Shown here: positions 4,536-28,004 of the stretch, piece after piece
How positions within the stretch are numbered: position 1 is the first letter of the stretch
Layout of the letters: each line of letters opens with the position of its first letter
Source: Barthelona sp. PAP020
Taxonomy: Eukaryota
Length of the DNA: 33,053 nucleotides
Assembly: GCA_040182905.1 (NCBI GenBank)
Contig: JARQWU010000098.1
Coordinates: forward strand, 1 to 33,053
Direction of reading: 5' to 3'
Made by a program: the position numbers and the translations under genes
Notes under the pieces: generated by a model
Databases searched by the model: none
What the model saw: the letters and a program-made list of their open reading frames with translations, nothing else
Told to the model about the DNA's origin: nothing

Positions 4536-4715
4536 ATCATCATGAAAAATCTAAATTTTCCTTTTCGGACAACAAAATTATTTTTTTATAAGAATAAAAA
4601 AGCTTTTTCATCTTTAGAGTAGCTAAATATCAAAATTTTAAAAGAGGTATGAAAGAATTTGAAATCCTTCCAGATTTTTAATAAATATTTTTTTGTTGTC
4701 TTTCATCAGATTATT

Positions 4716-5381
4716 ATGGCTACAAGAAAAAAATTCTTATTGAAAGTCATCCTTTTAGGTGAACCTGGGTATTTTATTATCAGACATAGAAACTAACTTT
4801 CAAGTGTTGGAAAAACTGCTTTAATGACTCAATTCTGTACGAAACGTTTTTCTGCCCAATATAGAGCCACATTGGGTGCTGAATTTCTTTCTAGAGACAT
4901 TGAAATCGATGATAGAAGAGTAAGTCTTCAAATATGGGATACTGCTGGTCATGAAAGATTCCAATCTTTGGGTTCTGTTTTTTTCCGTGGGGCTGATGCT
5001 TGTATTTTAGTTTTTGATGTAACTAATAAGACATCTTTTGATAAACTTACCAATTGGCATCATCAATTCAGTGTTCAAGCCATTAGTTCTGAACCTGACA
5101 CTTTCCCTTTTATTGTTATTGGTAATAAATGCGATAAAGAAGTCGATGAAAGAACCGTTACTCCACATGAAGCCAAGCGTTGGTGTACACATAATGGTTT
5201 TGAATATTTTGAAACCTCTGCAAAAGAAAATACCAATGTTGAAGAGGCTTTCAGAAACGCTGCTAAAAAGGCACTTCAAAGAAGTATGAACAGTGCTGGT
5301 CAGCAGAGTTTTTCAAATGCCATTCCCACAATGGAAGTTCGCAATACAGAGAGTGATGCTGATACTGGTTGTTCTTGTTAA
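4716..5381 (+). CDS. RAB7: Rab7-family small GTPase; exons 4716-4768 and 4805-5381
   Basis: Removing the 36-nt intron restores MATRKKFLLKVILLGEPGVGKT. Also WDTAGHERFQSLG, FPFIVIGNKCD, YFETSAKE and a C-terminal CSC prenylation motif. Confidence 0.9.
4769..4804 (+). other. 36-nt spliceosomal intron in Rab7
   Basis: GTATTT...ACTAAC-TTTC-AAG. Contains an in-frame TAA; removal restores the P-loop. Confidence 0.92.
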
Positions 5382-5493: not shown

Positions 5494-6066
5494 ATGAGTT
5501 CAAACGAAGCAAAAAAGGTAGATGGAGATATTGATGTGATGAATGAAGTTCTAAATAGCATGCCTTTGGATTATTTAATTTCTGCACCTATTGTTGCAGC
5601 TAATCGTGCCAATGAGGAAATGCAAAAAAGTACATTAAATTTTATTGAAGATTTATTGGATGAAAACCGATGTTTCAAAACTGCAACTTTCACTGTTCCT
5701 TCCAACAATCAGTATTCATCTAATGATCTCAGCTTAACTGTGCCCATTGCTTCATTGATTAATCCTCCAAGTATGATTGTTAGAGAAGTTGGAATTGATT
5801 TTTCTATGGAAGTTGGCCATACTGAAGTTGATACTTCATCAACAAATATGAAAGCCAAAGGAGGGGTTGATTTACCTTTATTAAAAAAGCCTATTGTTTC
5901 TGGAAAAGTTTCTTCTTCTCAAAGAAGTGAAAGAACAACAGATAGATCAGCTAAATACAGATTAAAACTTATTGCTACACAAGATGAAGTACCTGAAGGT
6001 TTGGCCAGGTTAAATAATATTCTTTCGCAATCAATATATGCCGTTCCAAAATCTAAAAAATTATAA
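5494..6066 (+). CDS. DUF2589-family protein (bacterial-type)
   Basis: Motifs MPLDYLISAPIVAA, VPIASLINPPSM..IDFSMEV and VSGKVSS...RTTDRSAKY...PEGLARLNNIL match the DUF2589 pattern as I recall it. First ATG at 5494. Confidence 0.78.
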   Translation: MSSNEAKKVDGDIDVMNEVLNSMPLDYLISAPIVAANRANEEMQKSTLNFIEDLLDENRCFKTATFTVPSNNQYSSNDLSLTVPIASLINPPSMIVREVGIDFSMEVGHTEVDTSSTNMKAKGGVDLPLLKKPIVSGKVSSSQRSERTTDRSAKYRLKLIATQDEVPEGLARLNNILSQSIYAVPKSKKL

Positions 6067-19198: not shown

Positions 19199-20122
19199 TT
19201 ACAATTCCGGTGATCTCTTATTATCAATCATTTCATCAAAAATTTGATCATTGTCATGCTTTTCAGAAAAATTTTCTTCTTTATCAAAATAATTTAATTT
19301 TCTTTTGACAATATCTTCGGTTATTTCACTGTCAACATCACATTCTTTCACAAATTTACGAACAAAATCAACAACATAATTTGCTACTATTCCCACCGTT
19401 TCTTTGTTTCCAAATAATGGTAAATTTAAGGGAAAATTTAGAGTATTGAATTTAAAACGACATGGCTTGGCCGTTTCAGGAAATTCAAAATTTTTGATTT
19501 GATAATTCGCCCTTGCTTCAGTTTTTGAAACAAAATATTCAATTAACAACAGTCTTTCAATGATTTTAACGATAATTCCATGTGAAACTTCATTCATTCG
19601 TAAACTTTGTAAAAATGAGAGTGATCCACCATGATTGGATGTTTGGTCAAAAATACTGTTTTTTGACCTTGTTCGAATGGTGACTAAGCCTTTATTTTGT
19701 GCTCGTTTTTTCAATTTTCTGTATGATTTTGGGGTTAAACATTTTGTAAAGTATATTTTTTGTTGATTTAAATTAAACAAAAACACTTTTATTTGTTTTT
19801 TCAACATTTTCAAAGATATTTTTGTTAAAGAGGGTTCAATTAATAAAATAAGCTCCTCATCTACTTTTTTTCGCAATAATTTCCTTCGAATAAATTTTGA
19901 AACTTCAATTTCCAATAAATATTCAATATTTGTTGTATTATTTGGTTTTAACTTATCAATTGGCCTAGGTTGAACAATTTCACATGACAAATCTTCTTTG
20001 GATTTGAATGATAATGCGGATAAATTCCTAAATATCTCAAAATTACTTGATCGAGACATTGGATAACATGCCATTGTTTCAAAACATATCACACAAAATG
20101 AAAACAAATCCAAACATGGCAT
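19199..20122 (-). CDS. hypothetical protein (start ATG 20122 or 20074)
   Basis: About 300-aa ORF; no family recognised. Confidence 0.6.
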   Translation of the reverse strand: MPCLDLFSFCVICFETMACYPMSRSSNFEIFRNLSALSFKSKEDLSCEIVQPRPIDKLKPNNTTNIEYLLEIEVSKFIRRKLLRKKVDEELILLIEPSLTKISLKMLKKQIKVFLFNLNQQKIYFTKCLTPKSYRKLKKRAQNKGLVTIRTRSKNSIFDQTSNHGGSLSFLQSLRMNEVSHGIIVKIIERLLLIEYFVSKTEARANYQIKNFEFPETAKPCRFKFNTLNFPLNLPLFGNKETVGIVANYVVDFVRKFVKECDVDSEITEDIVKRKLNYFDKEENFSEKHDNDQIFDEMIDNKRSPEL

Positions 20123-20223
20123 ATAAACGGTGCATAGAAAAATAAACAAAAAAAGATGGGAATTATAATAAAATAACTGAAATTTATGATTGAATGAAAA
20201 TAAAAAAAAAACTGAATTAACGA

Positions 20224-20359
20224 CTAATTATGTTAGAAAATGAACAATTGATTCAAAAAAAAAAGCAATCAGAAAGCAATTTCACACCATGAAATACAAA
20301 AGTCTGAAGACCGTTGCGCTTAGGTATCATCATTGCAAGATATAATAACATAAACAAAC
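20224..20359 (-). other. 136-nt snoRNA-hosting intron (intron 2 of the non-coding host)
   Basis: GTTTGT...TTCTAAC-ATAAT-TAG enclosing a C/D snoRNA. Confidence 0.72.
20265..20336 (-). ncRNA. box C/D snoRNA, snR73/U35 (SNORD35) functional homologue
   Basis: Terminal stem GCAA/UUGC, box C AUGAUGA, D' CAGA, D CUGA. D' guide GCAACGGUCU-U pairs with conserved LSU UAGACCGU(C)GUG; the D'+5 base pairs with the first C of AGACC (yeast 25S Cm2959). Confidence 0.85.
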
Positions 20360-20369
20360 TTTTTAAAAA
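20360..20369 (-). other. 10-nt non-coding micro-exon TTTTTAAAAA
   Basis: Flanked by a CTAAC-TTAA-TAG acceptor and a GTTTGT donor, between two snoRNA introns. Confidence 0.65.
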
Positions 20370-20493
20370 CTATTAAGTTAGATTAGTTCATGAATTTGAA
20401 AAATGAAAAAATTCAGATATAAAGTTGTCGTCAGTGAATCAGACATATGCTTGAAAAAAAACATCATCAAAATTATGTCAATATAAAACGTAC
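20370..20493 (-). other. 124-nt snoRNA-hosting intron (intron 1 of the non-coding host)
   Basis: GTACGT...TCTAAC-TTAA-TAG enclosing a C/D snoRNA. Confidence 0.72.
20409..20474 (-). ncRNA. box C/D snoRNA, snR74/U27 (SNORD27) functional homologue
   Basis: Box C UGAUGA (20469-20464), D' CUGA, C' UGACGA, D CUGA (20416-20413). D' guide CAAGCAUAUG is exactly complementary to 18S CAUAUGCUUG; D'+5 selects yeast 18S Am28. Confidence 0.9.
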
Positions 20494-20541
20494 TTTTTTA
20501 AAGGAAAAAAATCATTCTGGGTTTTTTTGAAACATTTCATT

Positions 20542-20666: not shown

Positions 20667-21272
20667 ATGAACCATTTGTCACGTGGTATTGTGGATTCTT
20701 TATATCAATTAACGATAGATACTAGTGTTGATGCTTCTGCACAAAATTTTACGGAATTGGTTGAACTTGTTGACAAAAATTGTTTTGACAGAGTGAGATT
20801 TTTAGATATTTCAAAGAATTTTATCACAACAATAGAAACTAATTATTTTTTGATGTTTCCAAATTTGATTGAACTTAATTTGACTGCAAATAATTTAACA
20901 AACTTGGATATCAATATACCTAATTCATTGAAAAAACTGTATTTAGGATATAATAGGATGACAAATATTCTCATTGAAGGGGGTAATTGTTTAGAAATAT
21001 TGAATATTTCCATAAATTTTTTGATGGATGTTGAGTTTTTGCAAAACATACAATTGCCACAATTAAAAGTCTTGTCATTGAATCACAATAAACTAATTTT
21101 TGATAAATTTATAAACACAATAAAGGGAATTGATTTCTCTCAACAGTTTCCTAATTTAATTAGGTTTCATTTGATAGATGCTTTTGAACATCCATTAATT
21201 TTGGAAGAACAAATATGTTTGCAAGAAATTTTTGAAAAAAAAGGTGTTATTGTTACATTAAATCTAGAATAA
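20667..21272 (+). CDS. leucine-rich repeat protein
   Basis: LxxLxLxxN repeats: FLDISKN, LIELNLTAN, LKKLYLGYN, LEILNISIN, LKVLSLNHN. Confidence 0.88.
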   Translation: MNHLSRGIVDSLYQLTIDTSVDASAQNFTELVELVDKNCFDRVRFLDISKNFITTIETNYFLMFPNLIELNLTANNLTNLDINIPNSLKKLYLGYNRMTNILIEGGNCLEILNISINFLMDVEFLQNIQLPQLKVLSLNHNKLIFDKFINTIKGIDFSQQFPNLIRFHLIDAFEHPLILEEQICLQEIFEKKGVIVTLNLE

Positions 21273-26735: not shown

Positions 26736-26886
26736 CTAAGGTTAGATTTTGTTAATTCAAAGGAAATGAAAGAATCAGTTAAATATGTACGATCCTCATT
26801 GCCCGTTTAAAAATTTGACTATAACGAACAGGCTCAAGCGAGAGGAACATAATTTTAATCATTTAAAAAAGATGAACAAAACATAC
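26736..26886 (-). other. 151-nt non-coding (UTR or host-gene) intron enclosing a hairpin RNA
   Basis: AG|GTATGT donor and TCTAAC-CT-TAG acceptor, outside any CDS. Confidence 0.6.
26783..26851 (-). ncRNA. candidate intron-encoded single-hairpin H/ACA guide RNA
   Basis: Lower stem UCCUC/GAGGA, internal loop, upper stem GCCUGUU/AACGGGC (G-U pair supports the - strand), then ACA-UAU. Confidence 0.62.
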
Positions 26887-26978: not shown

Positions 26979-28004
26979 TTATAAAACTGGATCTCTTTTC
27001 AAGTTATTTTCTTGAACAGCATTTTCATCATTGTTATCATTTTCAGAAACAATTTGTTCATTTTTTCTGTTTTTTTGCGCGGCCACAATAACATTAAATT
27101 GATGATATTTTTCATAATTTTTAACCAAAAATACAGCAATTGTGTTTCTAACCACTTCAATATTTATGATTAAATCAGCGACCTTCCATGACAATGGAAT
27201 ATTGTGTTTGGCCATTATTTCATGAACTTGTTTGTAAACAACTTCTCTATCTGTTCCACCAGCGGATCTTTTTTTCAGTTTGATGGAATAACTATTTATT
27301 TCAGGATTATTTGACAAGAATTCATCTACATGAGTGCTCATTCTTTTATGGAAAATAGATTCTGAGGCTTCTTCTTCTTCATTATGGGATACTTGTGTAT
27401 TTTCAGTTGATGTGGTTTCAACATATTCAGTTTTTGTTTCAAGGTTGATTTCATCAGTTGGTTCTGTATCGACTGCTCCCTTGACTTCATTTTCTTCTTG
27501 TTTATCTTTCAATTTCCCTTGAACATCATTCACATGACAAGTAAACTCGAAAGGTATTAATTTTTGAATCTGGGTAATTTGAGATTTGCCGTTGGAAATG
27601 ATTTCATCAAATATCTTCTCAGTAAAATCATTGATACTAACTTTCATTTGAGGTATTATCATAGCAACTGTCCCACCAACTCCTGTATCTGTCCAATATA
27701 CCAATTTATTCTCTTTTTCATCAGATTTTTCATCTTTTTCAATTTCAACAGCATCAAAAAAATCAGTCATTGCGTCTAATTCAATTTCATCTGTGCTATT
27801 AGATTGATAAATATTTGGATAGTATTCTTTTAATTTTGTATCTAAAAAAGTTTGAAGTTCAGCTGTAGCTTGTCTTTCTCTTTGTTTTTCAACAGTTGTT
27901 GTCAATAAAAAACCGGTTTGATTTGAATGAAAAGATGGTGCGTTGGGATTCGTTTTTTTGTAATATTGTTTTTTGTTTCTTCTTCTGTTACCTTTTTGTG
28001 ACAT
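26979..28004 (-). CDS. THUMP domain protein, THUMPD1/Tan1-like (tRNA ac4C adaptor)
   Basis: GFLLTT..RERQATAE, TGVGG, QKLIPFEFTC, YSIKLKKR, ADLIINIEVVRN...YEKYHQFNV. Confidence 0.82.
   Translation of the reverse strand: MSQKGNRRRNKKQYYKKTNPNAPSFHSNQTGFLLTTTVEKQRERQATAELQTFLDTKLKEYYPNIYQSNSTDEIELDAMTDFFDAVEIEKDEKSDEKENKLVYWTDTGVGGTVAMIIPQMKVSINDFTEKIFDEIISNGKSQITQIQKLIPFEFTCHVNDVQGKLKDKQEENEVKGAVDTEPTDEINLETKTEYVETTSTENTQVSHNEEEEASESIFHKRMSTHVDEFLSNNPEINSYSIKLKKRSAGGTDREVVYKQVHEIMAKHNIPLSWKVADLIINIEVVRNTIAVFLVKNYEKYHQFNVIVAAQKNRKNEQIVSENDNNDENAVQENNLKRDPVL

What the first reader, a model, noticed from the sequence alone, without database searches (positions are those of the whole stretch)
20224..20520. 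Hidden non-coding snoRNA host transcript: two snoRNA introns separated by a 10-nt micro-exon
Seen (- strand): exon...TTTAAAAAA | intron 20493-20370 (GTACGT...CTAAC-TTAA-TAG) containing a C/D snoRNA | exon TTTTTAAAAA | intron 20359-20224 (GTTTGT...CTAAC-ATAAT-TAG) containing a second C/D snoRNA | U-rich exon. The nearest upstream ATG (20515) gives only MIFFL-stop. The splice signals match the introns validated by reading frame in Rab7, PDI and SatP. Known: 'inside-out' hosts (vertebrate UHG/GAS5, fungal non-coding snoRNA hosts) use exons only as spacers. Inference: this intron-poor protist keeps such a host, or a multi-intron 5' UTR of the 19199-20122 gene, to release snoRNAs by splicing. The ORF track does not show it.
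Basis: partly seen in the sequence, partly recalled or inferred. Interest (0 to 1): 0.9.

Follow-up and report, generated by a model that had tools for sequence, protein, structure and literature searches.

The report
Two snoRNA introns in a metamonad
In the anaerobic protist Barthelona, two back-to-back intron-like stretches each hold a predicted guide RNA for ribosomal RNA methylation (matching yeast snR74 and, less surely, snR73) and are likely spliced out of a short non-coding host transcript, a layout known from fungi, animals and ciliates.

Summary
The intron-plus-boxes pattern occurs 3 times in the window and once in total in 200 shuffles. The organism is Barthelona sp. PAP020, a metamonad: its transcript-derived Rab7 equals the window's spliced Rab7. 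snoRNA 1 has the U27/snR74 guide for 18S Am28. snoRNA 2 is probably U35/snR73 (LSU Cm2959). Box D ends 35 and 36 nt before the branch A, against 33-39 nt in a fungal-type cluster, which fits splicing-coupled release. No RNA data could be obtained, so splicing is inferred. Non-coding host versus 5' UTR of the 19199-20122 ORF stays open (about 50:35). The layout is known from vertebrate UHG/GAS5, fungi and Oxytricha, and this scan has noted it before in other protists. My searches found no report for a metamonad. The order snR74 then snR73 is that of the fungal snR78-72 cluster; coincidence is more likely than ancient linkage. The window also holds a third C/D intron and an H/ACA-like hairpin in the PDI intron. 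Verdict: new member of a known kind.

The parts
20494..20540 (-). Putative exon 1 (5' end unknown); A/U-rich, ends in a run of A; only short ORFs (ATG 20540, 20535, 20515)
   Evidence: Sequence; spliced translation
20370..20493 (-). Intron 1, 124 nt: donor GTACGT, branch A 20378, acceptor TAG
   Evidence: chance test
20409..20474 (-). C/D snoRNA 1, U27/snR74 type (ends estimated). Box C 20470-20464, D' guide 20453-20443, D' 20442-20439, C' 20433-20428, D 20416-20413. Predicted target 18S Am28
   Evidence: 15 nt of guide plus D' identical to the Rfam SNORD27 consensus (below gathering score) and invariant in 4 of 4 fungal-type snR74 copies; target site from Table 1 of PMC8817022
20360..20369 (-). 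10-nt micro-exon TTTTTAAAAA
20224..20359 (-). Intron 2, 136 nt: donor GTTTGT, branch A 20233, acceptor TAG
   Evidence: chance test
20265..20337 (-). C/D snoRNA 2, probable U35/snR73 type (ends estimated). 4-bp terminal stem, box C 20333-20327, D' guide 20319-20308, D' CAGA 20306-20303, candidate C' 20290-20284, D 20272-20269. Predicted target LSU Cm2959 (yeast numbering)
   Evidence: Best anchored site in a proxy LSU (L002 711-722) puts +5 on the same C as fungal-type snR73; alignment with 4 snR73 copies; no Rfam SNORD35/snR73 hit at E<=10
20123..20223 (-). Putative exon 3 (3' end unknown); U-rich; shares a 12-nt word at 20195-20184 with the exon after the third snoRNA intron; out-of-frame ATG at 20135
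19199..20122 (-). Orphan ORF (307 aa; other starts 20074, 20059), the possible host mRNA under the 5' UTR reading
   Evidence: no Pfam (7), no homologue (49), no Atlas hit (29), uninformative fold (74)
26736..26886 (-). Third C/D snoRNA intron of the same build (151 nt), outside any ORF; internal control for the architecture

Best explanation
This is likely a short non-coding snoRNA host transcript of the UHG/GAS5 type, whose two predicted introns each carry one box C/D guide (U27/snR74, and probably U35/snR73) and whose exons would serve only as spacers. Shown in the sequence: splice signals, boxes, guides, spacing and lack of a long ORF in the joined exons. Inferred steps: (1) Pol II starts in the divergent gap between 20540 and the LRR gene at 20667. 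(2) The spliceosome removes both introns and joins the 10-nt exon. (3) Core C/D proteins load during splicing, which would explain why box D ends 35-36 nt before the branch A. (4) The lariats are debranched and trimmed to RNAs of about 65 and 73 nt. (5) These guide 2'-O-methylation of the bases equivalent to yeast 18S A28 and 25S C2959. (6) The joined exon RNA ends before the 19199-20122 ORF and is degraded. Steps 2-4 follow established intronic snoRNA biology; step 6 is the weakest.
For: Splice signals match a transcript-confirmed intron (Rab7) and a 137-nt coding intron (PDI). The architecture is far above shuffles. The snoRNA 1 guide equals the SNORD27/snR74 guide. The snoRNA 2 guide lands on the snR73 site in the same register. 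Donor-to-box C distance is 24, 27 and 25 nt and box D-to-branch A is 35, 36 and 33 nt in the window's three C/D introns, against 33-39 nt in 5 of 5 introns found in fungal-type locus L011; a position-dependent, splicing-coupled route is described in PMC8162545 (about 50 nt in vertebrates). The joined exons give only ORFs of at most 18 codons before 20122. An out-of-frame ATG at 20135 overlaps the ORF start. L011 has 0-3-nt exons between snoRNA introns, as described for fungal hosts. The two terminal exons share a 12-nt word found nowhere else in the window; alignment score 39 against a maximum of 36 in 342 flank pairs, reached by 45 of 2000 shuffles, which is suggestive only.
Against: No reads or transcript show these junctions or either end of the RNA. 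Both snoRNA loci in the window lie 101 and 166 nt upstream of a same-strand ORF, as 5' UTR introns would. The joined exons have no stop in the frame of the 19199-20122 ORF from 20511 on, though no ATG either. The snoRNA 2 guide has one mismatch and one G-U against the proxy LSU, and 77 of 1000 shuffled guides score as well somewhere in it. snoRNA 1 has no clear terminal stem. Neither RNA reaches an Rfam gathering score.
Confidence: 0.5

Rival explanations
1. The two snoRNA introns are 5' UTR introns of the mRNA for the 19199-20122 ORF. The snoRNAs are released by splicing in the same way, but the spliced product is a coding mRNA.
For: Same strand, 101 nt from the last acceptor to the first ATG. 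The other C/D intron also sits 166 nt upstream of a same-strand ORF whose protein is in the transcriptome-derived set. No 3'-end signal is identified. The PDI intron suggests that coding genes host snoRNA-like units here.
Against: Up to three short upstream ORFs in exon 1, depending on the start site, and an out-of-frame ATG at 20135. The ORF is an orphan with no housekeeping signature, whereas coding hosts tend to be broadly expressed genes (PMC3511168; human data).
Confidence: 0.35
2. One precursor runs through both introns into the downstream ORF and is cut after the last intron, like the ncRNA-plus-ORF dicistronic precursors that Giardia cleaves at a 12-nt motif.
For: Giardia belongs to the sister group and does this (PMC3510501). 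Both terminal exons share a word that overlaps a near-match to that motif.
Against: The Giardia consensus is matched with at most one mismatch 52 times in 6,472 non-coding bases (both strands) and never exactly, so the match carries no weight.
Confidence: 0.1
3. The snoRNAs are independently transcribed, or cut from an unspliced dicistron as in budding yeast, and the splice signals are chance or relics.
For: Giardia snoRNAs come from mono- or dicistronic precursors; S. cerevisiae processes the same cluster unspliced.
Against: All three C/D units carry donor, branch and acceptor at near-constant distances; the intron-only pattern is expected 0.41 times per window and all 3 hits fall on snoRNAs.
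Confidence: 0.05

Closest known systems
Fungal snR78-snR72 polycistronic snoRNA host (cluster I; PMC3596301, PMC2780460, PMC5824354)
   Same: One C/D snoRNA per intron, tiny or absent internal exons, no long ORF; snR74 directly followed by snR73; box D 33-39 nt before the branch A in L011.
   Different: Only two snoRNAs: no snR75-78 upstream and no snR72 downstream. The organism is a metamonad. snoRNA 2 is about 30 nt shorter than snR73, lacks its 3' part and has a changed guide. PMC5824354 dates the cluster to the root of Ascomycota.
Vertebrate UHG (SNHG1) and GAS5 non-coding hosts
   Same: Exons as spacers and one C/D snoRNA per intron. That U27 lies in UHG and U35 elsewhere is recalled, not from a call.
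   Different: Far more compact: 124-136-nt introns, a 10-nt exon, D-to-branch spacing about 35 nt against about 50 nt (PMC8162545).
Oxytricha trifallax intronic C/D arrays (PMC3177221)
   Same: Protist with probable non-coding carriers of intronic C/D snoRNAs (arrays of 12 and 4), inferred from splice sites.
   Different: Ciliate, larger arrays; their snoRNA order could not be seen (supplement unavailable).
U27/SNORD27/snR74 and U35/SNORD35/snR73 guide families
   Same: D' guides at the same place after box C and in the same +5 register.
   Different: Below Rfam gathering scores; the snoRNA 2 guide differs at two positions from fungal-type snR73 within its 10-nt core.
Giardia snoRNA genes (PMC3510501)
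   Same: Closest studied relatives; snoRNAs just upstream of ORFs.
   Different: Released by cleavage at a 12-nt motif from mono- or dicistronic precursors; the passages I saw describe no intronic snoRNA.

Membership tests
Box C/D guide snoRNA | Boxes C and D at the ends, internal D' and C' | tested here: met
   C' of snoRNA 2 is only a candidate
Box C/D guide snoRNA | 10-nt or longer antisense element next to D or D', complementary to rRNA with the +5 rule | tested here: inconclusive
   snoRNA 1 guide identical to known U27/snR74 guides, but no real 18S was obtained to pair it with; snoRNA 2 has 9 Watson-Crick pairs, 1 G-U and 1 mismatch over 11 nt on a proxy LSU. Barthelona rRNA was not available
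Box C/D guide snoRNA | Stable small RNA bound by fibrillarin; target methylated | not testable with these tools
   No RNA run listed
SNORD27/snR74 (RF00086) | Rfam gathering score 52 bits | tested here: not met
   18.5 bits, E 0.62; it works like U27 by its guide but does not reach the model threshold
SNORD35/snR73 (clan CL00056) | Rfam match | tested here: not met
   No hit at E<=10; the assignment rests on guide and register
UHG/GAS5-type non-coding snoRNA host | One snoRNA per spliceosomal intron | tested here: met
   By sequence:
UHG/GAS5-type non-coding snoRNA host | Joined exons without a long ORF | tested here: inconclusive
   At most 18 codons up to 20123, but the 3' end is unknown and a 307-aa ORF follows
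UHG/GAS5-type non-coding snoRNA host | Introns are actually spliced; transcript ends mapped | not testable with these tools
   No reads, no genome
Fungal snR78-72 cluster (orthology) | snR74 followed by snR73 | tested here: met
   subject to the snR73 assignment
Fungal snR78-72 cluster (orthology) | Other members (snR75-78 upstream, snR72 downstream) | tested here: not met
   No further C/D intron near the locus; an LRR gene starts 174 nt upstream on the other strand

The most novel reading that the evidence does not exclude
The snR74-then-snR73 intron pair in Barthelona and the same pair in the fungal snR78-72 cluster descend from one intronic snoRNA host in the last eukaryotic common ancestor, together with a fixed spacing of about 35 nt from box D to the branch point. 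This would be the first positional conservation of snoRNA genes across supergroups, against the finding of none in PMC3511168. It would also mean that this intron-poor metamonad keeps its long introns only to make snoRNAs (4 of 4 introns over 100 nt found in the window hold a snoRNA-like unit; the 2 without are 36-38 nt).
Probability: 0.15. Interest if true: 0.8.

Novelty: new member of a known kind. Interest (0 to 1): 0.42.

Why it matters
It extends splicing-released snoRNAs, and probably non-coding hosts, to Metamonada, next to Giardia, whose snoRNAs are described as cut from unspliced precursors. That suggests the route was present in the ancestor of barthelonids and fornicates, and gives a reason for an intron-poor genome to keep introns. 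The near-identical box D-to-branch spacing in a metamonad and a fungal-type cluster is a simple signature for finding snoRNAs that Rfam misses in divergent protists. The shared snR74-snR73 order makes the question of ancestral snoRNA linkage testable with existing BaSk, Kipferlia, preaxostylan and Anaeramoeba genomes.

Tried and rejected
No whole genome is held. No RNA holder was listed, so no reads were laid; this is no evidence either way. Rfam at gathering score: 0 hits in the window. The best Rfam hit for snoRNA 1, SNORD121A (27.7 bits), was rejected because its guide differs and SNORD27 and TtnuCD28 match the guide better. A scan for the 18S 5' end in viral contigs gave 5 loci, none of them rRNA, so the Am28 duplex was not tested on real 18S. 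A free complementarity scan was dominated by noise and was replaced by a box-anchored test. The D guides of all three snoRNAs found no convincing site in the proxy LSU (609, 168 and 998 of 1000 shuffles did as well). The metagenome scan for a U27 guide followed by a U35 guide within 101-161 nt gave 7 loci: 5 fungal-type snR78-72 clusters (two with the same sequence over the stretch shown) and 2 without snoRNA context; none outside that cluster type. The spacing limit means others could be missed. The absence of the 19199-20122 protein from the protein collection was dropped as evidence, because only 2 of 10 other window ORFs were found by exact look-up. Its fold was uninformative (mean pLDDT 33.6). 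The Giardia 12-nt motif match is not above background. The H/ACA pocket match for the PDI hairpin is not significant (27-149 of 500 shuffles over four registers). The Barthelona PDI protein was not among the best 150 representatives. The sigma-70 scan does not apply to a eukaryote. No look-alike earlier finding by place or sequence.

Full report
Observation. A pattern for donor, 90-150 nt, branch and acceptor hits the window 3 times (20493, 20359, 26886) against a mean of 0.41 in 200 dinucleotide shuffles. With boxes C and D added it hits the same 3 places, against 1 hit in all 200 shuffles. I wrote that pattern after seeing the cases, so it overstates the significance somewhat.

Organism and splice signals. 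A search with Rab7 exon 2 returned a 209-aa protein at 100% identity. It is a Trinity-transcript protein of Barthelona sp. PAP020 in EukProt, and its N-terminus reads through the junction predicted by removing 4769-4804. That names the organism and confirms one intron by transcript. Barthelonids and skoliomonads are the sister group of Fornicata within Metamonada (PMC11316075, passages; the word snoRNA does not occur in its main text). The SatP intron 23363-23326 restores the frame. For PDI, 18 in-frame donors were scored against a profile of 71 homologues; 10337 (GTATGA, 137-nt intron, 477 aa) was best at 197 bits against 191 for the next. So this spliceosome appears to handle introns of 36-38 nt and of about 137 nt with the same signals. 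I found three coding-region introns among about 20 ORFs; my scan may have missed some.

snoRNA 1. Rfam gives no hit at gathering score anywhere in the window. In a narrow search the SNORD27 model aligns with 15 identical bases over guide and D' (18.5 bits, E 0.62), and Tetrahymena TtnuCD28 aligns over nearly the same guide. Those 15 positions are invariant in 4 of 4 snR74 copies from fungal-type clusters. U27/snR74 guides 18S Am27/Am28 (Table 1 of PMC8817022, passages). I could not obtain a real 18S to pair it with.

snoRNA 2. It has a box C, a CAGA D', a box D and a 4-bp terminal stem. Rfam finds neither SNORD35 nor snR73. I tested the 12 nt upstream of D' against L002, a contig holding the 3' third of a eukaryotic LSU. 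The best site of the 1,103 bases is 711-722: 7 straight pairs, a mismatch, then pair, G-U, pair. The +5 rule falls on C714, the base that fungal-type snR73 in L010 reaches in the same register; snR73/U35 guides Cm2959/Cm4506. The score alone is not significant: 77 of 1000 shuffled guides do as well somewhere in L002. The assignment rests on the best site being a known guide's site, in the same register and at a like distance from box C. I put it at about 85%. It predicts a C-to-U change in the Barthelona LSU.

Spacing. In the three C/D introns of the window, donor-to-box C is 24, 27 and 25 nt and the end of box D lies 35, 36 and 33 nt before the branch A. In the five introns my pattern found in fungal-type locus L011 the latter is 39, 33, 36, 35 and 38 nt, with exons of 0, 3 and 0 nt between neighbours; snR74 itself was not in a recognised intron there. 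Position-dependent, splicing-coupled assembly aided by Aquarius/IBP160 is described for vertebrates at about 50 nt (PMC8162545, passages). Whether Barthelona has Aquarius was not tested. The constant spacing is the best indirect evidence that these are functional introns.

Host. The joined exons give ORFs of 17, 7, 5 and 18 codons before the ATG at 20122, so no coding exon links them to the 19199-20122 ORF. Whether the RNA stops before that ORF cannot be read from sequence. For a separate host: the short upstream ORFs, an out-of-frame ATG at 20135, an orphan ORF, and a 12-nt word shared only by the two terminal exons (45 of 2000 shuffles). For a 5' UTR: both loci lie 101 and 166 nt upstream of a same-strand ORF, and the ORF's frame is open through the joined exons. 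The ORF's absence from protein collections means little, since only 2 of 10 other window ORFs were found by exact look-up. A Giardia-like cleavage motif (PMC3510501, passages) is not above background. I put non-coding host at 0.5, 5' UTR at 0.35, cleaved dicistron at 0.1 and no splicing at 0.05.

The snR74-snR73 order. Fungal cluster I runs snR78-77-76-75-74-73-72 and is intronic in many fungi (PMC3596301, section 5 and passages). The three clusters named there hold 10 ordered neighbour pairs. With about 45 C/D families (recalled), a random pair matches one about 0.5% of the time; this is a rough post hoc sum, not from a call, and it grows if animal and plant clusters are counted. Against ancient linkage: PMC5824354 (passages) places the cluster's formation at the root of Ascomycota, with members dispersed at the root of Dikarya, although PMC3596301 treats Rhizopus as having the cluster. 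The Plasmodium equivalents are on chromosomes 11 and 13 (PMC2656528, table passages). The Dictyostelium U35 equivalent CD23 sits between CD16 and CD5, not next to the U27 equivalent CD18. A survey of 44 genomes found no ancestral intronic position (PMC3511168, passages). No other cluster member flanks the Barthelona pair. My metagenome scan for the linked guides gave 7 loci: 5 fungal-type clusters (Rfam snR73 in 4, snR75 plus both guides in the fifth; fungal origin inferred from cluster make-up) and 2 without snoRNA context. I give ancient linkage 15%.

Comparison and novelty. Non-coding hosts are shown by RT-PCR in Neurospora (PMC2780460, passages) and inferred in Oxytricha (PMC3177221, section 27; supplement unavailable, and it may list the order of its arrays). 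Tetrahymena snoRNAs are mostly intergenic (PMC3273799, passages). Earlier notes of this scan report the same layout in a foraminifer and another protist (not checked). For metamonads, searches for Barthelona+intron, snoRNA+intronic+Giardia+Trichomonas+host gene (31), snoRNA+Giardia+Spironucleus+intron (54), metamonad+snoRNA (56), snoRNA+non-coding host+protist+intron (57) and snoRNA with BaSk or Monocercomonoides names (96) listed no paper on intronic snoRNAs in the group. I saw listings for most, and passages of PMC2817412, PMC10711314, PMC5874029 and PMC3510501. The library lacks most subscription papers. PMC3116282 (passages) notes a divergent D' in snR73. The finding is real, of a known kind, new for its lineage as far as I could see, with one low-probability route to a surprising result.

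Noticed in passing
window 26886-26736 (-): Third C/D snoRNA intron outside any ORF, between the 26979-28004 and 24128-26569 genes. Box C ATGATTA 26862-26856, D' TTGA, 7-bp internal stem, C' 26799-26793, D 26778-26775. Its 12-nt D' guide pairs with L002 816-827 (11 Watson-Crick, 1 G-U; 1 of 1000 shuffles). Likeness to the human SNORD91-type site is recalled and untested. No Rfam support.
   Followed up: partly
window 10337-10201 (-), hairpin 10309-10253: The 137-nt PDI intron holds one hairpin with an internal loop and an AUA box 16 nt below the pocket top: a candidate single-hairpin H/ACA-like RNA. Fold z -1.8; target match to the proxy LSU not significant.
   Followed up: partly
window 20195-20184 and 26695-26684 (-): The same 12-nt word follows the last snoRNA intron at both loci and occurs nowhere else in the window; possible 3'-end or initiator element.
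   Followed up: partly
window 4769-4804 (+): The Rab7 intron ends in AAG, a rarer acceptor; confirmed by the transcript-derived protein P0121.
   Followed up: yes
window about 4648-4710 (+): Upstream of Rab7 there is the same exon-end plus donor word as at 26886, followed by a CAG 6 nt before the ATG; possible 5' UTR intron without a canonical branch site.
   Followed up: no
   Followed up: no
window 5494-6066 (+): DUF2589 protein in a eukaryote; recalled as a mostly bacterial family.
   Followed up: no
window 20494-20500 and 20360-20366 (-): Both host exons end in A runs before the donor, which would suit pairing with the U-rich U5 loop (inference).
   Followed up: no
L011 248-1602 (-): Fungal-type snR77-snR72 cluster with zero-length and 3-nt exons between snoRNA introns, as described for the Candida clade.
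   Followed up: partly
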